DNA of 50,405 nt from a virus: UHGV virus genome UHGV-0169486; one strand, given 5' to 3'. The notes beneath the pieces were generated by a model. The model was not told the origin of the DNA. It ran no database searches and worked only from the letters and a program-made list of their open reading frames with translations. Every line of letters starts with the position of its first letter. Within the stretch, counting starts at the first letter, position 1. Shown here piece after piece: positions 13,489-34,135 of this stretch. Made by a program: the position numbers and the translations under genes.

Positions 13489-14237
13489 TTATCAGATCTC
13501 CATATTGAATGCGTTTGTCGAACATAAGCAGGCCGCATTTGCTCGCGGCGGCTTAATAGTCCGGCATGGTCATGATGCAAAACCGTGTTATCACCCAGGT
13601 AAATCATTGCGTGGCATGGATCCGCACCTTTAAACGGCTGTCTGATGATTACGTCACCTGGCTGGATGCTTTGCGCATCAACCTGATAAAACCCGTTTTG
13701 CGGCAAGTTTTTTAAATACAGGTTTTCACCGCGCAGCCACCAGCCATCAAGGCGCTCGAAGTCCGGCAGGTCTACACCACAAAGGTGATAGGCGTCACGG
13801 AAAAGCGCGTAGCAGTCAGTTACCCCGTGCACAAACTTACGGCCTAGCAGGTGCGCCACCGGGCGAAATTTTCTTATCTTGCCGCCGGAATATAAAAACC
13901 ACGGCAGACCGGAAATAACCTGCTGTTGTCGATCCCGCGCAGACAATACCGAAATATCATCAACGTGGGAGTGGAAAACGGCGGTTATAACGCCCAATTC
14001 GTCCGCTTTGATGTAATCGTCCGGCGAAATCTTGAAGCTGTTGTGAGGCGTTTCAGACACGTTAGCGCACGGGTAAAAATACTCGTTATCTATTACAAGT
14101 CCGCAAACTTCCTCAAACGGATGCGCGGCGGCATAACGCGACATTTTGTCTTCCATCCCCATGATTAACCTACCTTGCTGGAACCAGGGAAACAGGAGAT
14201 CGGCAGTGCTGCCGGGCGCGGGAAACGCAAACGGCAA
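13431..14237 (-). CDS. K: tail assembly protein K (MPN/JAMM plus NlpC/P60 domains)
   Basis: JAMM motif HSHVDDISVLSARD and NlpC/P60 Cys in TDCYAL; position between L and I. Confidence 0.85.
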   Translation of the reverse strand: MPFAFPAPGSTADLLFPWFQQGRLIMGMEDKMSRYAAAHPFEEVCGLVIDNEYFYPCANVSETPHNSFKISPDDYIKADELGVITAVFHSHVDDISVLSARDRQQQVISGLPWFLYSGGKIRKFRPVAHLLGRKFVHGVTDCYALFRDAYHLCGVDLPDFERLDGWWLRGENLYLKNLPQNGFYQVDAQSIQPGDVIIRQPFKGADPCHAMIYLGDNTVLHHDHAGLLSRREQMRPAYVRQTHSIWRSDKCSNLDLRAIFEDITAKCV

Positions 14238-28871: not shown

Positions 28872-30356
28872 TTAAAATCCGCGCAGGCGCTTAGGTAACA
28901 TGAGGCCCACAGCCTGTGGCTGGCTTAATTCAGTGATACCCCATACCATCGCGTCGAGGCGGTCGGGTGATTTTTTAGCGGTAGCTGGCACGTATTCCAT
29001 CATTTGATTTTCCAGCGTGTACAGGCTGCCAGTGTGGGCTACCCTTCCCTGTGCATACAGTGCCGATATTGGCTCGGCGCGGGCGAATTTACCTTTGCTT
29101 GCGTGCACCTTAACAATGCGGCCTTTGAATCCGGCATTACGCAACGTGGCCACTGCCATTTCGCCGCCCTGGTTGGTTTCGATAACTATCGCATCAGCCT
29201 CATGGATGTTATAAGCGTTCATTGAGGCTTGCGCCCAATCGTTAGGAGACATGCGGCCTGAGTAGTCACCGTCTACTGAATACTGTGCGTACTTGCCGCC
29301 ACCATAGGCGGAACATGCCACGATCCCGGTTTCGTCCGATTCATCAGATGATGTTGTAGCCGGGTCGATGGCTATTACCGTGCGAATCTTGTCCTGCGTT
29401 ATCTGCATCCGGTGCGCAGCGGTTATCATCGCTTCCGTCCACAATGCGCCTTCCTCGTCGAATTTACGCGGGCGCTGCATATATTGGGCTTCGAATGACC
29501 TGCGGTGCGCCTTTAGTCCGGCTTCGTGGCTGTCATTGTGCTTTTTAGGCCATAGCCAGCCGTCCGGCAGGTTGTGAGCAATAGGAATAGCGAATTCATT
29601 TTCCGGGTACAGATCCCAATAGTCGACGCTGTTATCAATCTTCACAGGCAGGTTGAGGTGATACCATTTCTCACCGCTTCCACCGCGTAACAGGTAGCCG
29701 GACAAATCATCGTAGTGGATGCGTTGCATGATAACGATCACTGGCGTTGTTTGTACTGCCAGACGTGAAGCCAGCGTGTCGTTGTAGTTGGTCTTTACCT
29801 TCTCACGCATCACATCAGAGTAAGCGTCAGCGGGCTTTAATGGGTCGTCGATAATCATCGCGCCGTTGAAGCCCGGCTCCATGTAACCAGCACGGAAGCC
29901 TGTTATCTGGCCCTGTGAAGATGCGGCATATATCCCGCCTCCCTGTTCCGTCCACCACATTGATTTACTGTTGGCATCATTGCGGATCTTCATAGGCCAT
30001 AACTTCTGGTATTCCTGCGAGCAAATCATGTTTCTGACTGTCGAGGAATTGAGTAACGCAAGATTGTCGGAATAGGAAACGTGAAGGAAACGTGTGCGGG
30101 GATTTATTGCGAGGGACCGCGCCATCATGTTAATGGTCGCAATCATGGTTTTACCGTACCCTGGGGGAATGTTAATGATGAGACGGGTAATCTCACCATT
30201 GATAACGCGTTGTAGCGCATCGCGTATGGCTATGTGATGGCCTGAGATTAACATCTTCGTGCCGTTGGCCTGCTTATAGAAATAACGGTTGAAGAACAAG
30301 CCATCGTTTTCACATTTGGATTGAATAACCCTTTCTTTGATGGACAACATAATCAC
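28872..30356 (-). CDS. terminase large subunit
   Basis: Walker A-like PPGYGKT; nuclease-type C-terminal region; ATGA overlap with small subunit gene. Confidence 0.85.
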   Translation of the reverse strand: MIMLSIKERVIQSKCENDGLFFNRYFYKQANGTKMLISGHHIAIRDALQRVINGEITRLIINIPPGYGKTMIATINMMARSLAINPRTRFLHVSYSDNLALLNSSTVRNMICSQEYQKLWPMKIRNDANSKSMWWTEQGGGIYAASSQGQITGFRAGYMEPGFNGAMIIDDPLKPADAYSDVMREKVKTNYNDTLASRLAVQTTPVIVIMQRIHYDDLSGYLLRGGSGEKWYHLNLPVKIDNSVDYWDLYPENEFAIPIAHNLPDGWLWPKKHNDSHEAGLKAHRRSFEAQYMQRPRKFDEEGALWTEAMITAAHRMQITQDKIRTVIAIDPATTSSDESDETGIVACSAYGGGKYAQYSVDGDYSGRMSPNDWAQASMNAYNIHEADAIVIETNQGGEMAVATLRNAGFKGRIVKVHASKGKFARAEPISALYAQGRVAHTGSLYTLENQMMEYVPATAKKSPDRLDAMVWGITELSQPQAVGLMLPKRLRGF

Positions 30357-30838
30357 ACCTCGTCTTCTACTTCCTGGACGATGCGGGCGATCTCTTCTTT
30401 CGTGACTTCAACCTGGACGGGTGCTTCTTCCTTGTTGCCGACGATCTCCTGTGTGACGCGTTCGCCATATTTACGCGGTTGCAGTTTTGCCAGTAACCAT
30501 TTACGCGTTTCAATCATTAGTTGGTGGCGGCGTAGTTGGTCTTTATCAACGTTCTTAGCATCATCAGCTATATCGAGGATCTCATCAGCTAATACCTCGA
30601 AGCCGATTTCCTTCGCGTGCATGTACATGTCCGAGAATTCCGGCACGTCTCTAAACCATTTCAGGATTGTGGAACGGGTAGGCATACCAGGCATTTTCGA
30701 AATTTTGTTAACACTCTGACCGTCCGCCACCAGCTCACAGATTTCTAATGCTTTTTCTTCGGTATAACCATGCGGACGGCCCACCTTTTTAGCGGCTGGC
30801 TTTTTGTCGTCAGCTTTTGCATTTTTAGTGCGGGCCAT
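30353..30838 (-). CDS. terminase small subunit
   Basis: Basic N-terminus with HTH; GAGAGGTGA RBS; immediately upstream of large subunit. Confidence 0.7.
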   Translation of the reverse strand: MARTKNAKADDKKPAAKKVGRPHGYTEEKALEICELVADGQSVNKISKMPGMPTRSTILKWFRDVPEFSDMYMHAKEIGFEVLADEILDIADDAKNVDKDQLRRHQLMIETRKWLLAKLQPRKYGERVTQEIVGNKEEAPVQVEVTKEEIARIVQEVEDEV

Positions 30839-30928
30839 AATTCACCTCTCAATATTTATTGATGATATATACGCAAGCAACAAAACTTGCACAGTATGTT
30901 AATACTTCCAACCAGTCGAATAGCTTTT

Positions 30929-31072
30929 TCATTGTTTAACCTTAAATCTCTGTTTTGCTTCTCTGTAAATAAGCGCGGTAATCATTACAATCACGTATAC
31001 GCATAACATTAATGCGGCAATAAGCAGACCAGCGCAAAGCAAGAACGTTAGCAGATTGAGGAATTCAGACAT
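30929..31072 (-). CDS. micro-ORF A, 47 aa single-TM peptide
   Basis: Own translation MSEFLNLLTFLLCAGLLIAALMLCVYVIVMITALIYREAKQRFKVKQ; start 3 codons after stop of preceding micro-ORF. Confidence 0.4.
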   Translation of the reverse strand: MSEFLNLLTFLLCAGLLIAALMLCVYVIVMITALIYREAKQRFKVKQ

Positions 31073-31081
31073 GATGCTTTC

Positions 31082-31150
31082 TCACGCAAAAAAAACGATA
31101 ACGGCTAACAGTGTGCATATAGCCATAATTAAGAAATCACCGTCAGACAT
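31082..31150 (-). CDS. micro-ORF B2, 22 aa hydrophobic peptide
   Basis: Own translation MSDGDFLIMAICTLLAVIVFFA; ATG overlaps stop region of B1. Confidence 0.3.
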   Translation of the reverse strand: MSDGDFLIMAICTLLAVIVFFA

Positions 31151-31217
31151 TGATAATAAACCCCACAATAACAGCCGCTGCAATACATACGAATAATACA
31201 GCCTCGATGGTTTCCAT
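31143..31217 (-). CDS. micro-ORF B1, 24 aa hydrophobic peptide
   Basis: Own translation METIEAVLFVCIAAAVIVGFIINV; AGGTGA RBS. Confidence 0.4.
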   Translation of the reverse strand: METIEAVLFVCIAAAVIVGFIINV

Positions 31218-31225
31218 ATATTCAC

Positions 31226-31294
31226 CTATTGAGTCAACGCGGTCATGGTAAGAACAATCGCAACGGTCAGGAAAAATAAATCAAGCCATTTCAT
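31226..31294 (-). CDS. micro-ORF C, 22 aa hydrophobic peptide
   Basis: Own translation MKWLDLFFLTVAIVLTMTALTQ; GGGAGA RBS; ATGA overlap with micro-ORF D. Confidence 0.4.
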   Translation of the reverse strand: MKWLDLFFLTVAIVLTMTALTQ

Positions 31295-31371
31295 TTTTTA
31301 GTCTCCCGGTATACGTCCACGGCAATAACTGCAACGGCAGCCACCAGCAATAGCATTTCGTAGGCGTTCAT
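31291..31371 (-). CDS. micro-ORF D, 26 aa hydrophobic peptide (MNAY family)
   Basis: Own translation MNAYEMLLLVAAVAVIAVDVYRETKK; ATGA overlap with micro-ORF E. Confidence 0.4.
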   Translation of the reverse strand: MNAYEMLLLVAAVAVIAVDVYRETKK

Positions 31372-31466
31372 TTGATACTACCTACAACCAGACCGATGAT
31401 GATGATTATGGCGACAATGCCTAACATCATGCCGCACATAATCGCCAGTAATTCGAATATATCCAT
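31368..31466 (-). CDS. micro-ORF E, 32 aa hydrophobic peptide
   Basis: Own translation MDIFELLAIMCGMMLGIVAIIIIIGLVVGSIK; AGGTGA RBS. Confidence 0.4.
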   Translation of the reverse strand: MDIFELLAIMCGMMLGIVAIIIIIGLVVGSIK

Positions 31467-31474
31467 GCCGTCAC

Positions 31475-31549
31475 CTATACAACATTCTTTAACCACAGAT
31501 ACATAATGACGGCGAGTGATGAGCACCAGATGAGATCGTAAATATTCAT
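31475..31549 (-). CDS. micro-ORF F, 24 aa hydrophobic peptide (MNIY, paralog of H)
   Basis: Own translation MNIYDLIWCSSLAVIMYLWLKNVV; AAGGTA RBS; shares TACGATCTCATCTGGT with H. Confidence 0.4.
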   Translation of the reverse strand: MNIYDLIWCSSLAVIMYLWLKNVV

Positions 31550-31559
31550 GTTGATACCT

Positions 31560-31634
31560 TTAGCTTTCGATGAATATCATGACCGCCAGCCATACAGCGA
31601 CGCATGCAGAAAGGATAACGACCGGGTCAATCAT
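31560..31634 (-). CDS. micro-ORF G, 24 aa hydrophobic peptide
   Basis: Own translation MIDPVVILSACVAVWLAVMIFIES; GGTGA RBS. Confidence 0.4.
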   Translation of the reverse strand: MIDPVVILSACVAVWLAVMIFIES

Positions 31635-31639
31635 ATTTT

Positions 31640-31714
31640 TCACCACAGCCTGTAAATGTTCACGCAAATACCTACGATGAGCACCAATAACCAGATGAGA
31701 TCGTAGGCGTTCAT
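31640..31714 (-). CDS. micro-ORF H, 24 aa hydrophobic peptide (MNAY family)
   Basis: Own translation MNAYDLIWLLVLIVGICVNIYRLW; ATGA overlap with micro-ORF I. Confidence 0.4.
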   Translation of the reverse strand: MNAYDLIWLLVLIVGICVNIYRLW

Positions 31715-31806
31715 AATTTACTCTTTACGGTTATCAGCACGGCAATGACAAAACACACCAGAAATACAGAAACACCGATTAGTCCGGCGATGATGTTCTC
31801 ATCCAT
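31711..31806 (-). CDS. micro-ORF I, 31 aa hydrophobic peptide
   Basis: Own translation MDENIIAGLIGVSVFLVCFVIAVLITVKSKL; weak RBS. Confidence 0.35.
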   Translation of the reverse strand: MDENIIAGLIGVSVFLVCFVIAVLITVKSKL

Positions 31807-31810
31807 AATA

Positions 31811-31879
31811 TTAATGCCCGTATATCAAGATCACAGCGGCAGCAATACCAACAAATACGCCTAACAGAAAAGTAAACAT
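31811..31879 (-). CDS. micro-ORF J, 22 aa hydrophobic peptide
   Basis: Own translation MFTFLLGVFVGIAAAVILIYGH; GAGGGTGA RBS; ATG 2 nt after stop of the HExxH protein gene. Confidence 0.4.
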   Translation of the reverse strand: MFTFLLGVFVGIAAAVILIYGH

Positions 31880-31881
31880 AA

Positions 31882-32424
31882 TCACCCTCGTTTAAAGCTC
31901 ATTACGCGCGGCACATATGCCTCTTTTGATTTCGGCTTACGTTTACCTTTCTTCGCTGGCTTTTCTTCTTCCTTCGGCTGTTCTGCCTGTTCCAGCGCCT
32001 GATCGACGACTTCTGCCGCCTGCATTGCTGCAACCTGTGCTTCGTTTGATTCTGCCAGGATAGGGGAAAACGCATCGAAGATACGGCCTACCATGTAAGC
32101 GTAAGTCTCATTCGCCGGATGGGTAGGATCCGTGGTAGCCACGACGCCTACATCACTTAAAACGTGGAATGTAGTGTGGGCGCATTCATGGACCAGCGTT
32201 CCCAACTCATTGTTGAATACTGCGATCACGTAGAAGTTACCACCATTCTCGCCAGTGCAAGTAAGCGTTAATCCTTCAGCCAACTCGAAATCAGGTTCAA
32301 TCGGAATTCCTGCCTTTTCGCAAAATTCATAGAACATCTCGCTGGTCGGGCAAAAGAAAACAGTGGTATGCTCAAAAAGCGGGATCTTGAAGTGAGGCAA
32401 CTTAATGCCTTTAGCCTTAGCCAT
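31882..32424 (-). CDS. HExxH-motif protein (putative zinc metallopeptidase-like) with Lys-rich C-terminal tail
   Basis: ORF track; HECAH motif; AGGAG RBS; between lysis cassette and micro-ORF array. Confidence 0.6.
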   Translation of the reverse strand: MAKAKGIKLPHFKIPLFEHTTVFFCPTSEMFYEFCEKAGIPIEPDFELAEGLTLTCTGENGGNFYVIAVFNNELGTLVHECAHTTFHVLSDVGVVATTDPTHPANETYAYMVGRIFDAFSPILAESNEAQVAAMQAAEVVDQALEQAEQPKEEEKPAKKGKRKPKSKEAYVPRVMSFKRG

Positions 32425-32702
32425 CAGAATAATCTCCTATTCTGAAAAATATAACCCCCGCAAAACTCGACACCGCAGGGAGTGAAAACAGCTATAAAAC
32501 ACTGAAAACGGCGCTTCATCAGTACCGTTTCCAGAATTTTATAAAATTGGTGGATGGCGCTTTCTTCTACCCAGGTAGCGCCGACCTGTTAATGGGATGG
32601 ATGATCCGGTATTACGTGTTTTTGACTATTCCGCAGTCGCTCGCGGGAAGGATTGACCCGGTTATGGCTGGCTGGCGAAAACGGCGACACGTCCACGCGC
32701 TG

Positions 32703-33173
32703 TTATTTTTTGCGTAAGCACTGCGTTTTGATGTAGTCCTGCAATCCGGTGATCTTCGCGTCTTTCTCTTTTAGTTGTTCTCTGAGGGATAGATAAGCCG
32801 ATTCAGCGTCGGCAGTGAGTCTACAGGTGGCTCCATCAATGCGGCTGGCGGTTCCGGTATTGTCGAGCAATCGCACTGGCTCGGCGTTGACGTGCAACCT
32901 GATAGCGCCGCTATCAATGCCAGCGCGAAGATCGGCAATGTCAGATCTGATAGCTTTAATTTCATCGTGATACCTCTTATCAAGTTTTGATAGCTCTGCG
33001 TTTCGCTCCTTCATCTGCTGAATAGTGTTACTTGCTGTTTTTAGTGCGCCTTGCGTCACCGTGACTTCTTCCTGTAACCTTGCCGCCTCACCCTGGTAAT
33101 AACATGTAACGGCAGTTAGTCCGGCAATAATGCAAACAACAACGGCAATAACTAACGCCTTTACCTTGTCCAT
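32703..33173 (-). CDS. Rz: i-spanin (Rz-like)
   Basis: N-terminal TM segment, coiled-coil body; downstream of endolysin; contains embedded Rz1-like ORF. Confidence 0.75.
32771..32965 (-). CDS. Rz1: o-spanin (Rz1-like lipoprotein) embedded in Rz in +1 frame
   Basis: Signal peptide with lipobox LSGC; Pro-rich mature part; fully embedded in Rz. Confidence 0.6.
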   Translation of the reverse strand: MKLKLSDLTLPIFALALIAALSGCTSTPSQCDCSTIPEPPAALMEPPVDSLPTLNRLIYPSENN

Positions 33174-33652
33174 GTTTCACCCCATTCGCAAACGGCATAT
33201 TCAATATCACGACGGTTAATTAACCCTTGCCACTGCTTACCACCAGCATAGATCCAGCGTTTAAGCTGTGCGCACGCTTCCGATTTCTTGCCGTCATTGA
33301 GTAGCTTCAATAATGTTGATGTTTTAAAGTTGGTAGCGCCTACGTTATAGGCGAATGAATAAAGCGCCGCGCGGGTAAAATCTGATATTTCGACTTTAAT
33401 ATAGGGGTCGATCGCTTTTGCGGTTTTGTGGAGATCTTTATTTAACAAAGCATCGCATTCTGATTGCGTGTAAGTCTTACCAAGCATGATGTCTTTTCCG
33501 GTATGACCATAACATACAGTCCATACACCGATAACATCACGATACGGATCGTACTCCACGCCTTCTAATGATTTAACCATCACAGCCGCAATAGAGATCG
33601 CCCCACCAGCCGCCGCAGCAATAATCTTGTTCTTCAGCGATTGGCTAATCAT
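33161..33652 (-). CDS. SAR endolysin (lysozyme, phage 21 R-like)
   Basis: N-terminal SAR-like hydrophobic segment [15 protein letters not shown] followed by lysozyme catalytic region [10 protein letters not shown]...[11 protein letters not shown]; recalled similarity to phage 21 lysozyme. Confidence 0.85.
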
Positions 33653-33853
33653 TTACTTATTCCCCATTCGCGCGTCGTGTTCCTCTTGCGCTCGCTTGTT
33701 CTCCTGTGATTTGAAGTAATAGTTAACGGCAAATGTACCTGCGGTTGATAAGATACCCACAAAGACAGCAACATCATTGATGGTTATCGCACCGAAAAAG
33801 GCCGTTACGGCCCCTACTGCATACGCGCACGTCTCCCGTATTTTGTCGAGCAT
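33653..33853 (-). CDS. holin (class II / pinholin-like)
   Basis: 66 aa, two TM segments, charged C-terminus; GGAGG RBS; immediately upstream of endolysin. Confidence 0.7.
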   Translation of the reverse strand: MLDKIRETCAYAVGAVTAFFGAITINDVAVFVGILSTAGTFAVNYYFKSQENKRAQEEHDARMGNK

Positions 33854-33869
33854 AGATTTACCTCCAACA

Positions 33870-33896
33870 AAGCAAAAACCCGGCGCTGGGCCGGGT
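33870..33896 (-). terminator. rho-independent terminator just upstream of holin RBS (tR'-like, candidate target of Q antitermination)
   Basis: CCCGGC-ccagc-GCCGGG followed by TTTTTGCTTTGTT on minus strand, then holin RBS. Confidence 0.55.
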
Positions 33897-33961
33897 AATT
33901 ACAATTTCGCATTGTTAGGAAGTATTTTAATCTATTTGTTTTTTATGCGCGATCATGGCTT

Positions 33962-34135
33962 CTATTTCTTCTTTATCAGGCCATTATCAAGCAATATTTG
34001 CATCTGTTCACGATCCATGTTTACGCCAGTCCAGAAAGGATGCTCACTCGACATAACAAAAACCTTTTCCTCTTTCAGCAAGTAAGCAATATCAAATAAG
34101 TTATGCACATATACACCGTCTTCGATCTCATTCAT
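33962..34135 (-). CDS. possible small protein (57 aa)
   Basis: Own translation MNEIEDGVYVHNLFDIAYLLKEEKVFVMSSEHPFWTGVNMDREQMQILLDNGLIKKK; AAGG RBS. Confidence 0.3.
   Translation of the reverse strand: MNEIEDGVYVHNLFDIAYLLKEEKVFVMSSEHPFWTGVNMDREQMQILLDNGLIKKK

What the first reader, a model, noticed from the sequence alone, without database searches (positions are those of the whole stretch)
31882..32424. HExxH-motif protein with lysine-rich tail, coupled to the micro-ORF array
This 180-aa protein carries an HECAH motif (HExxH, typical of zinc metallopeptidases) and a highly basic C-terminal tail. It lies between Rz/Rz1 and the micro-peptide array, and its stop codon is 2 nt from the start of the first micro-ORF. 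A metallopeptidase-like protein co-transcribed with many small membrane peptides could be a functional unit (processing or regulating the peptides, or a lysis accessory), but no function is assignable from sequence alone.
Basis: partly seen in the sequence, partly recalled or inferred. Interest (0 to 1): 0.6.

Follow-up and report, generated by a model that had tools for sequence, protein, structure and literature searches.

The report
Small phage zinc-protease-like accessory gene
This is a real late gene of a temperate E. coli phage that encodes a very small zinc-protease-like domain with a lysine-rich tail; it belongs to a widespread phage family of unknown target, and its link to the neighbouring micro-peptide genes is positional, not functional.

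Summary
Window 31882-32424 (minus strand) is a 180-aa ORF with HECAH at residues 79-83 and a basic tail, lying between Rz/Rz1 and a run of 12 micro-ORFs. Its stop codon is 2 nt from the first micro-ORF's ATG.

The motif alone is not beyond chance: one HExxH in the window's ORFs against 0.55 expected. The family is what makes it real. H79, E80, H83 and E106 are invariant in 70 diverse homologues, and 148 of 151 short representatives keep HExxH; the three exceptions are fragments or frameshifts. A confident AlphaFold model (pLDDT 94.5) shows the zincin core: a beta-alpha-beta-beta unit, the HExxH helix, then a helix carrying the glutamate.

The family is PHROG 1365 (unknown function) and matches no Pfam family. 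Its closest known relative is the ArdC-type MPTase-PolyVal domain (hhalign 84%, E 7e-6). It is not SprT-like.

The proposed functional unit with the micro-peptides is not supported. Relatives carry 0 to 13 micro-ORFs, and most homologues, including those in P22-like phages, have none.

Best reading: a cytoplasmic, late-expressed accessory metallopeptidase sitting in hypervariable phage slots, probably a conflict effector. Its substrate is unknown. It is a new member of a known kind, of modest interest.

The parts
31882..32424 (-). Complete gene: 180-aa stand-alone zincin-like metallopeptidase with an acidic linker and a basic tail (PHROG 1365 family)
   Evidence: ORF. PHROG 1365 at E 2.2e-30 over residues 1-131. 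There are 122 near-identical to 59%-identical homologues, mostly in E. coli prophages. The gene is annotated 'hypothetical protein' in phages MagusPhagus, mEp554 and mEp021.
32053..32424 (-). Catalytic core domain, residues 1-124: strands 11-13, 21-25, 51-57 and 63-69, backing helix 28-38, active-site helix 74-91, and the start of the glutamate helix at 104
32176..32190 (-). HECAH (H79 E80 C81 A82 H83): two predicted metal-ligand histidines and the catalytic base
   Evidence: Read from the sequence. H79, E80 and H83 are invariant in 70 sequences. HExxH is present in 148 of 151 short representatives.
32095..32112 (-). N105-E106-T-Y-A-Y110: predicted third metal ligand E106 at the start of the next helix, plus the nearly invariant Y110
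   Evidence: E106 is invariant and Y110 is conserved in at least 90% of sequences. The glutamate lies mostly 19-23 residues after the second histidine across the family. Helix 104-134 is seen in the model.
31966..32052 (-). Acidic helical linker, residues 125-153, variable in length among relatives (proteins of 180, 185 and 194 aa)
   Evidence: pI 4.05. The helix continues to about residue 148 in the full-length model. Insertions and deletions are visible in the alignments.
31885..31965 (-). Lysine-rich disordered tail, residues 154-180 (EKPAKKGKRKPKSKEAYVPRVMSFKRG)
   Evidence: 11 K/R, pI 10.8. pLDDT is below 50 for residues 152-180. Differences from relatives are mostly synonymous, 7 against 2-4. 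The motif E-x-[YL]-VPR-x3-[FY]KRG is kept in the 52%-identical P0121.
31877..31893 (-). Gene junction: the last codons AAACGAGGGTGA supply a Shine-Dalgarno-like GAGGGTGA, then TT, then the ATG of micro-ORF 1 (translational coupling)
   Evidence: Sequence. The same junction sits in front of different downstream micro-ORFs in relatives.
32425..32560 (-). Conserved leader upstream of the gene. It has a 21-pair hairpin (about 32492-32544), a second hairpin followed by a U-run (about 32455-32481, terminator-like), and the GGAG ribosome-binding site in the loop of a third hairpin (32425-32444).
   Evidence: RNA fold -41.6 kcal/mol, z -3.5. The first hairpin is kept in 7 relatives, with 3 pairs changed on both sides. 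It is annotated as a terminator in mEp021.
30849..31879 (-). Context only: array of 12 micro-ORFs (22-47 aa hydrophobic peptides) between this gene and the small terminase. It is not part of a conserved unit with the protease.
   Evidence: Copy number is 0-13 in relatives.
32703..33853 (-). Context only: lysis cassette of holin 33653-33853, endolysin 33161-33652, Rz 32703-33173 and embedded Rz1 32771-32983
   Evidence: Pfam PF16080, PF00959, PF03245 and PF06085.
28872..30838 (-). Context only: small terminase 30353-30838 and large terminase 28872-30356
   Evidence: Pfam PF20901 and PF17289.

Best explanation
The gene encodes a stand-alone minimal zincin, that is, a gluzincin-type zinc metallopeptidase.

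Predicted chemistry: H79 and H83 on the active-site helix and E106 at the start of the next helix bind the metal, and E80 activates the water. The strand 51-57, which begins with the invariant G51, probably forms the edge that binds an extended substrate.

Expression and location: the gene is transcribed as part of the late operon (holin, endolysin, Rz/Rz1, this gene, micro-ORFs, terminase). The protein stays in the cytoplasm, since it has no signal peptide or membrane segment.

Role: it is an accessory gene that occupies hypervariable slots in many unrelated phages. Its most likely role is as an effector protease that cuts a host or rival-element protein (host takeover or counter-defence). 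It is not a lysis or morphogenesis enzyme.

The tail: in this phage lineage the core has gained an acidic helix and a lysine-rich disordered tail. I infer that the tail either tethers the enzyme to a polyanion such as DNA or RNA, or folds back to keep the acidic active site closed.

The micro-ORFs: the link to them is only adjacency plus translational coupling.

Shown versus inferred:
- Shown: the gene, the family, the invariant motif, the fold topology, the contexts and the variability of the micro-ORFs.
- Inferred: metal binding, proteolytic activity, the substrate class and the role of the tail.
For: Family and motif:
- PHROG 1365, E 2.2e-30.
- 238 representatives at 50% identity with E <= 1e-3, median length 123 aa.
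- G51, H79, E80, H83 and E106 are invariant in 70 sequences that are 20-59% identical to the query.
- HExxH is present in 148 of 151 short representatives; the exceptions are fragments or frameshifts.

Fold and remote homology:
- The model (pLDDT 94.5) has the order strand, helix, strand, strand, HExxH helix, glutamate helix. This is the zincin core as defined in PMC5512222 and the gluzincin definition quoted in PMC7213743 (HExxH plus ExxA on the next helix; here E106-T-Y-A).
- hhalign against an ArdC metalloprotease-domain profile: 84% probability, E 7e-6 over 52 columns that cover the backing helix, the strands and HExxH.

Location and expression:
- No hydrophobic segment; the maximum 19-residue hydropathy is 0.88.
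- No sigma-70-like promoter on the coding strand between Rz and the gene. A promoter-like site plus a terminator lie upstream of the holin.

Accessory-slot contexts:
- After Rz and before the small terminase in mEpimmI, P22-like, lambdoid and Kosakonia prophages.
- After ejection gene 16 in HK620 and P22.
- Between the large terminase and the portal, and directly upstream of the portal.
- Inside runs of small unknown genes in lytic and jumbo phages.
- Neighbours are varied accessory genes: a methyltransferase, a GNAT, DUF2560, PhageMetallopep and an ART/RES-like protein.
Against: - No curated peptidase family is matched. Pfam gives nothing for this protein, and only sub-threshold SprT-like hits in 19 of 70 homologues.
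- The PDB profile search found nothing significant.
- I could not obtain model coordinates, so the metal-site geometry was not measured.
- The effector role rests only on genomic context. There is no experimental datum, no PADLOC family match, and no paper on this family was found.
- Late expression is an odd time for a counter-defence factor unless the protein is packaged. The mEp021 virion proteome as described (16 proteins in the main structural cluster plus two genes upstream of the lysis region) does not include it.
- Basic tails occur in only 9 of 151 representatives, so any tail-based mechanism is specific to this lineage.
Confidence: 0.55

Rival explanations
1. One reading: the protease and the downstream micro-peptides form one functional unit, with the enzyme processing, maturing or regulating the membrane peptides.
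For: The genes are adjacent on the same strand with a 2-nt spacer. The ribosome-binding site for micro-ORF 1 lies inside the protease's last codons. No strong terminator separates them. The arrangement recurs in the close mEpimmI relatives.
Against: - The micro-ORF number varies (12, 12-13, 10, 7, 5, 2) while the protease gene stays constant.
- A 52%-identical relative with the same tail motif abuts the small terminase with no micro-ORF.
- P22-like, lambdoid, Kosakonia and lytic-phage homologues have no such array.
- The peptides are 22-47 aa single hydrophobic helices with no evident pro-segment, whereas the enzyme is soluble and cytoplasmic.
Confidence: 0.06
2. A DNA-tethered, ArdC-like anti-restriction or anti-defence protease. 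The lysine-rich tail binds phage DNA, the protein may be co-packaged and ejected with the genome, and it cleaves host nucleases or sensors at the DNA.
For: - The closest known relative by profile comparison is the ArdC metalloprotease domain. In ArdC a gluzincin domain is joined to a DNA-binding domain and overcomes host restriction (PMC7213743).
- The gene often sits beside terminase, portal or ejection-protein genes.
- PMC5512222 predicts that zincin domains of phage polyvalent proteins, which are encoded among late virion genes, are delivered into the host with the DNA; it also notes solo forms of another polyvalent-protein domain (DdrB-like ParB) in late-gene contexts.
- The tail has 11 K/R in 27 residues and is predicted to be disordered.
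Against: - The protein is not among the virion proteins described for mEp021.
- Most family members lack a basic tail.
- In lytic and jumbo phages the gene lies among small early-like genes, not virion genes.
- DNA binding is purely inferred.
Confidence: 0.15
3. A packaging or morphogenesis helper. The protease would clear DNA-bound proteins ahead of the terminase, or process a head, portal or scaffold protein.
For: The gene lies within two genes of the small terminase, large terminase or portal in 8 of about 10 independent contexts. These include positions between the large terminase and the portal and directly upstream of the portal.
Against: - The junction between lysis and terminase genes is also a classic slot for accessory genes.
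- From my own knowledge, P22 does not proteolytically process its head proteins.
- The gene is present, absent or duplicated among closely related P22-like phages.
- It also occurs far from structural genes.
- The gene is left unannotated in the P22 reference record.
Confidence: 0.08
4. A lysis accessory that modulates the holin, endolysin or spanin, or the timing of lysis.
For: The gene lies immediately downstream of Rz/Rz1 here and in P22-like and lambdoid phages.
Against: - The protein has no signal peptide or membrane segment, so it cannot reach the periplasm.
- Homologues sit away from lysis genes in HK620 and P22, and in loci L010, L013, L014 and phage Motura.
- A conserved terminator-like leader separates it from Rz.
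Confidence: 0.05
5. A prophage-expressed exclusion or abortive-infection protease, analogous to the Lit protease of the e14 element, that protects the lysogen from other phages.
For: The gene occupies slots where lysogenic-conversion or exclusion genes are found, for example next to sieA in P22 and hkcB in HK620. It is carried by 27 of 5426 complete E. coli genomes as part of prophages.
Against: - No promoter-like site lies upstream on its strand.
- It points in the late-operon direction.
- There is no match to defence-system models.
- It is also present in strictly lytic-looking phages.
Confidence: 0.07
6. A chance motif or an inactive remnant, so that the HExxH has no catalytic meaning.
For: One HExxH in the window is about what composition predicts, 0.55 expected. 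No curated peptidase model is matched.
Against: H79, E80, H83 and E106 are invariant across sequences only 20-40% identical to the query. 148 of 151 short representatives keep the motif. The residues fall on the two helices expected for a zincin.
Confidence: 0.03

Closest known systems
MPTase-PolyVal (Pfam PF18818): the C-terminal metalloprotease domain of the anti-restriction protein ArdC and of phage and plasmid polyvalent proteins (PMC5512222, PMC7213743)
   Same: - Zincin core with HExxH and a glutamate about 23-24 residues later on the next helix (ArdC H201/E202/H205/E229; here H79/E80/H83/E106).
- Shared T-L-x-H-E-x-x-H context.
- hhalign 84% probability, E 7e-6 over 52 columns.
- Carried by mobile elements.
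- One homologue (P0118) is already named 'PolyVal Metallopeptidase superfamily domain' in nr.
   Different: - It does not reach the Pfam model in any of 70 members, even at E <= 1.
- It is stand-alone and about 120 aa, not part of a multidomain protein and not fused to an ArdC-N DNA-binding domain.
- The profile alignment stops at HExxH.
- It is expressed from a phage late operon.
Gluzincin peptidases in general (clan MA(E): thermolysin, M3 oligopeptidases, M32)
Minigluzincins (proabylysin, projannalysin): about 100-residue soluble archaeal zincins whose C-terminal tail blocks the active-site cleft (recalled from my own knowledge, not tested here)
   Same: A minimal, stand-alone gluzincin-like core of similar size. 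They offer a precedent for a C-terminal segment acting as an intramolecular inhibitor.
   Different: No sequence or structural match was seen here. The hosts are different (archaea, not phages), and the tail here is long and lysine-rich.
SprT-like, Spartan and Wss1 DNA-dependent metalloproteases (Pfam PF10263)
   Same: A small zincin core combined with a basic DNA-binding region. 19 of 70 homologues give weak SprT-like hits, best E 0.009, and a few viral structural neighbours are named SprT-like.
   Different: - The third ligand in SprT and Spartan is a histidine (PMC7213743); here H87 is not conserved and E106 is.
- hhalign against E. coli SprT gives 5.5% probability.
- No hit reaches the Pfam threshold.
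ImmA/IrrE (M78) and CapP regulatory metalloproteases
   Different: Only single weak hits: Pfam M78 in 1 of 70 at E 0.099, and PADLOC capP in 1 of 70 at E 0.005. The gene is not next to a repressor or a CBASS operon.

Membership tests
Zincin-like (gluzincin) metallopeptidase fold | An HExxH motif on an alpha-helix | tested here: met
   HECAH at residues 79-83 lies inside predicted helix 74-91. It is invariant in 70 homologues and present in 148 of 151 short representatives.
Zincin-like (gluzincin) metallopeptidase fold | A third metal ligand, a glutamate on the following helix (ExxA-type motif), about 20-25 residues after the second histidine | tested here: met
   E106-T-Y-A lies at the start of helix 104-134, 23 residues after H83. 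E106 is invariant. The spacing is mostly 19-23 residues across the family.
Zincin-like (gluzincin) metallopeptidase fold | A three-stranded (or larger) beta-sheet with a backing helix, N-terminal to the active-site helix | tested here: met
Zincin-like (gluzincin) metallopeptidase fold | Metal bound in a tetrahedral site, and peptide-bond hydrolysis | not testable with these tools
   Model coordinates are not returned, so ligand distances could not be measured. Activity needs biochemistry.
MPTase-PolyVal (PF18818, ArdC C-terminal domain) | A match to the Pfam model above its gathering score | tested here: not met
   No PF18818 hit for the query, for 13 close homologues or for 70 distant ones, even at E <= 1-10. 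All ArdC relatives carry PF18818.
MPTase-PolyVal (PF18818, ArdC C-terminal domain) | Profile-profile homology to ArdC-type domains | tested here: inconclusive
   hhalign of alignment A3 against A5 gives 84.3% probability, E 7.3e-6, over 52 columns that end at HExxH. Against the single ArdC sequence the probability is 45%.
MPTase-PolyVal (PF18818, ArdC C-terminal domain) | Embedded in a multidomain polyvalent protein, or fused to ArdC-N | tested here: not met
   Family members are 67-189 aa stand-alone proteins. The two giant hits match only repeated short segments of the N-terminus.
SprT-like (PF10263) | A Pfam match above threshold and a histidine as third ligand | tested here: not met
   The best hit is E 0.009 and sub-threshold, in 19 of 70 members. 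H87 is not conserved family-wide. hhalign against E. coli SprT gives 5.5%.
PhageMetallopep (PF18894) | Homology to the family, which is encoded next to a homologue in locus L011 | tested here: not met
   hhalign probability is 1.3%. There is no Pfam hit.
PHROG 1365 (phage protein family, function unknown) | A significant full-length match to the profile | tested here: met
   E 2.2e-30, residues 1-131 against profile positions 3-124 of 127.
Known anti-phage defence system components (PADLOC) | A match to any defence-system model | tested here: not met
   Only isolated hits, each in 1 of 70 members, with best E 0.005.
Phage lysis cassette component | Envelope targeting (signal peptide or membrane segment) and conserved linkage to holin, endolysin or spanin genes | tested here: not met
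   No hydrophobic segment. Homologues are found away from lysis genes.

The most novel reading that the evidence does not exclude
The protein is a stand-alone phage counterpart of ArdC. It would be a minimal protease held on the phage genome by its lysine-rich tail, possibly packaged and ejected with the DNA, that destroys host restriction or defence proteins at the DNA. If so, the whole PHROG 1365 family, including unannotated genes in the model phages P22 and HK620, would be a widespread and unrecognised class of proteolytic anti-defence factors.
Probability: 0.15. Interest if true: 0.6.

Novelty: new member of a known kind. Interest (0 to 1): 0.3.

Why it matters
Zincin-like proteases carried by mobile elements are a recognised theme, but almost none has a known substrate.

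This family is small (about 120 residues) and strictly conserved at the catalytic residues. It is common in temperate enterobacterial phages. That includes genetically tractable model phages: P22 has an intact copy that its reference annotation omits, HK620 has hkcC, and ST64T has gp49.

That makes the question of what a phage protease of this kind cuts directly testable with simple deletions and active-site mutants.

For this window the practical result is an annotation: a putative metallopeptidase, not a hypothetical protein. The attractive idea that it works together with the micro-peptide array should be dropped.

Tried and rejected
- Pfam, NCBIfam and PADLOC scans of the protein gave nothing usable. 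The NCBIfam 'mod_HExxH' hit (E 0.3) covers only the motif.
- PDB sequence searches with the protein and with the 70-sequence profile gave only noise: RNase A, and BMP-1 at E > 0.1.
- The first structure model, built from 13 close homologues, was mediocre (pLDDT 69.7), and Foldseek against the PDB found nothing with E <= 1e-3. I discarded it in favour of the model from the deep alignment.
- The AlphaFold-database fold library was unavailable.
- Literature searches for 'MPTase-PolyVal', 'hkcC', 'phrog_1365', SprT-like anti-defence and phage metalloprotease counter-defence found nothing on this family. The phage accessory-gene screen preprint does not mention it.
- Rfam found no RNA family in the region apart from a sub-threshold S15-leader hit.
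- Rejected family assignments:
  - SprT-like membership.
  - Kinship with the neighbouring PhageMetallopep family.
  - Tail conservation in P0118 as evidence of selection: it reflects a recent recombination joint, with the core 65-67% identical in nucleotides and the tail 83-95%.
Full report
**1. What is there.** Window 31882-32424 on the minus strand is an ATG-initiated ORF of 180 codons. It has a GGAG ribosome-binding site 9 nt upstream.
- HECAH is residues 79-83, at nt 32176-32190.
- The protein has three parts: an acidic core (residues 1-124, pI 4.9), an acidic stretch (125-153, pI 4.05), and a tail with 11 K/R in 27 residues (154-180, pI 10.8).
- No 19-residue window is hydrophobic enough for a signal peptide or membrane helix; the maximum hydropathy is 0.88.
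- On the same strand, upstream, lie the holin, endolysin, Rz and embedded Rz1. Downstream lie the small and large terminase subunits.
- Between this gene and the small terminase are 12 ATG ORFs of 22-47 codons. Each encodes one hydrophobic helix, and many overlap by ATGA.
- The protease stop (31884-31882) is 2 nt from the first micro-ORF's ATG. Its last codons (AAACGAGGGTGA) provide that ORF's ribosome-binding site.

**2. Where the window comes from.** The gene is 85-90% identical in DNA to 'hypothetical protein' genes of the temperate coliphages MagusPhagus, mEp554, mEp010, mEp044 and mEp013, which have the same gene order. These belong to the mEpimmI group described in PMC11893012. The gene is found in prophages of 27 of 5426 complete E. 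coli genomes.

**3. Is the motif more than chance?** Not by itself. There is one HExxH among the 182 ORFs of at least 60 aa in the window, where composition predicts 0.55. The evidence comes from relatives.
- The protein matches PHROG 1365, function unknown, at E 2.2e-30. It matches no Pfam or NCBIfam family.
- A profile search of 1.84 billion representatives found 238 relatives at E <= 1e-3. Almost all are stand-alone proteins of about 120 residues.
- In an alignment of 70 relatives that are 20-59% identical to the query, only five columns are invariant: G51, H79, E80, H83 and E106. F70, T76, G93 and Y110 are conserved in at least 90%.
- Of 151 short representatives, 148 have HExxH. The three exceptions are a truncated fragment and two frameshifted sequences.
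- The glutamate lies mostly 19-23 residues after the second histidine, within an N-E-x-x-x-Y motif.

This meets the sequence definition of a gluzincin, which is HExxH on the active-site helix plus ExxA on the next 'glutamate helix' (as quoted in PMC7213743).

**4. Fold.** With only 13 close homologues the model was mediocre, at pLDDT 69.7 with the tail (152-180) disordered, and Foldseek found nothing. With the 70-sequence alignment the core model is confident, at pLDDT 94.5 and pTM 0.88.
- Its order of elements is strand 21-25, helix 28-38, strands 51-57 and 63-69, helix 74-91 carrying HExxH, and helix 104-134 starting with E106.
- That is the zincin core as described in PMC5512222: a three-stranded sheet, an N-terminal helix, then two helices carrying HExxH and the glutamate.
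- Against predicted viral structures there were 24 matches at E <= 1e-3. Nearly all are uncharacterised phage proteins from very different phages (Pseudomonas, Erwinia, Ralstonia, Acinetobacter, Eggerthella, crAss-like); a few more distant neighbours further down the list carry names such as SprT-like family protein, Metalloprotease and SprT.
- I could not retrieve coordinates, so the metal-site geometry itself remains untested.

**5. Closest known family.** One homologue (P0118) carries the nr name 'PolyVal Metallopeptidase superfamily domain'. I tested this lead as follows.
- No member reaches Pfam PF18818.
- A profile built from 23 ArdC-type domains, all PF18818, aligns to the family profile with 84% probability and E 7e-6. 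The alignment spans 52 columns covering the backing helix, the strands and T-L-x-H-E-x-x-H.
- E. coli SprT gives 5.5%, and the third SprT-type histidine is not conserved.
- The neighbouring PhageMetallopep family gives 1.3%.

The family is therefore best described as an unclassified, stand-alone remote relative of the MPTase-PolyVal/ArdC protease domain within the zincins. It is not a member of that Pfam family.

**6. Genomic context and the micro-peptide hypothesis.** Within the mEpimmI group the protease gene is constant. The number of micro-ORFs between it and the small terminase is not: 12 here, 12-13 in MagusPhagus, 10 in mEp554, 7 in L016, 5 in mEp021 and 2 in L017. A 52%-identical relative that keeps the tail motif (EEYVPRIARYKRG) is followed directly by the small terminase, with no micro-ORFs. 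Further away, the homologue lies in these positions:
- After Rz and before the small terminase in ST64T, phage L, ST104 and PS119, in another P22-like element, in a Kosakonia prophage and in a lambdoid prophage, next to a PhageMetallopep gene.
- After ejection gene 16 in HK620 (hkcC) and P22.
- Between the large terminase and the portal.
- Directly upstream of the portal, after a GNAT gene.
- Inside long runs of small unknown genes in a lytic phage and in the 221-kb phage Motura.

None of these has a micro-ORF array, and several are far from lysis genes. The micro-peptides are thus a lineage-specific, expandable insertion between the protease and the terminase. They are not its partners, and a role in lysis is unlikely. 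What these positions share is that they are slots where phages keep variable accessory genes. The neighbours include a methyltransferase, a GNAT, DUF2560 and an ART/RES-like protein.

**7. Expression.** A promoter-like site (34010-33983) and a strong terminator (33896-33878) precede the holin, which resembles a lambda-type late promoter and terminator. No promoter-like site lies on the coding strand between Rz and the protease gene.
- The 278-nt leader is strongly conserved. It folds into a 21-pair hairpin, a second hairpin followed by a U-run, and a third hairpin that presents the ribosome-binding site in its loop.
- The first hairpin is kept in seven relatives, with three pairs changed on both sides. 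mEp021's annotators call it a terminator.
- The gene is therefore most simply a late-operon gene that depends on antitermination.

**8. The tail.** Basic C-terminal extensions occur in only 9 of 151 representatives, so the tail is an add-on.
- Its near-identity in P0118 reflects a recombination joint inside the gene: the core is 65-67% identical in nucleotides and the tail 83-95%.
- Within the group, differences in the tail are mostly synonymous, 7 against 2-4. The motif also survives in the divergent P0121, so it is probably constrained at the protein level.
- The final K-R-G codons also serve as the downstream ribosome-binding site.
- Its function is inferred only. It may tether the enzyme to a polyanion such as DNA or RNA, by analogy with ArdC and Spartan, where a zincin is coupled to a DNA-binding module (PMC7213743). 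Alternatively it may act as an intramolecular inhibitor of the acidic active site, as I recall for the archaeal minigluzincins.

**9. Mechanism and verdict.** Most likely this is an active, cytoplasmic, late-expressed minimal zinc endopeptidase that acts on a host or rival-element protein.
- I put about 0.8 on 'genuine zincin peptidase domain' and about 0.4-0.5 on 'conflict effector'. Together these give 0.55 for the combined statement as worded.
- The ArdC-like, DNA-tethered and possibly injected variant is the most interesting reading that the data allow (about 0.15). Against it, the mEp021 virion proteome as described does not include this protein.
- The other rivals are each unlikely, at or below 0.08. 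They are a micro-peptide processing unit, a lysis accessory, a packaging helper, a prophage exclusion protease and a chance motif.

No publication on the family was found. It is a new member of a known kind, zincin-like proteases of mobile elements. It is of modest interest, mainly because homologues in P22, HK620 and ST64T make the substrate question easy to attack.

Noticed in passing
window 30849-31879 (minus strand): There are twelve ATG ORFs of 22-47 codons, each encoding a single hydrophobic helix (mean hydropathy 0.8-2.2). Many are coupled by ATGA overlaps. The same peptide types recur in relatives (for example MIDPLIILSACVAVWLAIMIFIES and MKELFDWLEVLTYCASFVACVYIINKY), but copy number ranges from 0 to 13. 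The 27-aa ORF just before the small terminase is present in all six mEpimmI-type loci compared, but is absent from the more divergent L019, which has no micro-ORFs.
   Followed up: partly
window 32425-32560 (minus strand): The leader upstream of the protease gene is conserved. A 21-pair hairpin is kept in 7 relatives with 3 pairs changed on both sides. A second hairpin plus U-run is replaced by a different hairpin in two relatives. The ribosome-binding site sits in the loop of a third hairpin. This could be a terminator or attenuator within the late operon.
   Followed up: partly
L004 3001-3366 (phage P22 BK000583, about 13861-14226); L005 3001-3366 (HK620 hkcC): The P22 reference annotation has no gene here, only the 'sieA promoter' and 'mnt terminator'. 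Yet the locus holds an intact 121-aa ORF that is identical or nearly identical in protein sequence to HK620 hkcC. It is a member of this HExxH family, with HECAH and ANETYCY.
   Followed up: partly
P22-like phages ST160, SE1, ST-32, ST-35, UAB_Phi20 and others (rows with 2 places): Some P22-like phages carry two paralogues of the family. One lies after Rz and one after gene 16/sieA.
   Followed up: no
window 31902-32075 (minus strand, alternative frame): A 57-codon ORF in another frame overlaps the linker and tail and is itself extremely basic. Database variant P0114 is a frameshift fusion to this frame, and P0116 also ends in a divergent, highly basic tail that may be a similar fusion. These are probably sequencing errors or mutations, but both frames stay open.
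   Followed up: no
L016 5001-5534 compared with window 31882-32424: There is a mosaic joint inside the gene. The core of P0118 is only 65-67% identical in nucleotides to the other phages, but its last 26 codons are 83-95% identical, and its linker matches that of mEp554. This points to recombination within the coding sequence.
   Followed up: partly
window 33878-34010 (minus strand): A promoter-like site (TGAACA, 16 nt, GATAAT) is followed by a strong GC-rich terminator immediately upstream of the holin. The arrangement is like a lambda late promoter and terminator read through by an antiterminator. A Q-like antiterminator gene lies about 3 kb upstream in relatives.
   Followed up: no
window 32547-32717 (plus strand) and 32589-32696, 32424-32519 (minus strand): The conserved Rz-to-protease spacer contains small ORFs on both strands: 56 aa on the plus strand, and 35 aa and 31 aa on the minus strand. 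The two minus-strand ORFs are annotated in MagusPhagus. Whether any of them is coding, or whether the conservation is RNA- or DNA-level, was not resolved.
   Followed up: no
L010 8478-9557; L011 6376-7014: Neighbours of distant homologues include a 359-aa protein after the portal with weak ART-PolyVal and RES hits. That is typical of phage-packaged toxin or effector modules. Another neighbour is a 212-aa PhageMetallopep (PF18894) protein directly downstream of the homologue.
   Followed up: no
window 30810-30891 (minus strand): A sub-threshold Rfam hit to the ribosomal S15 leader (22.9 bits against a gathering score of 39.5, E 0.029) overlaps the last micro-ORF and the small-terminase start. 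It is probably chance.
   Followed up: no
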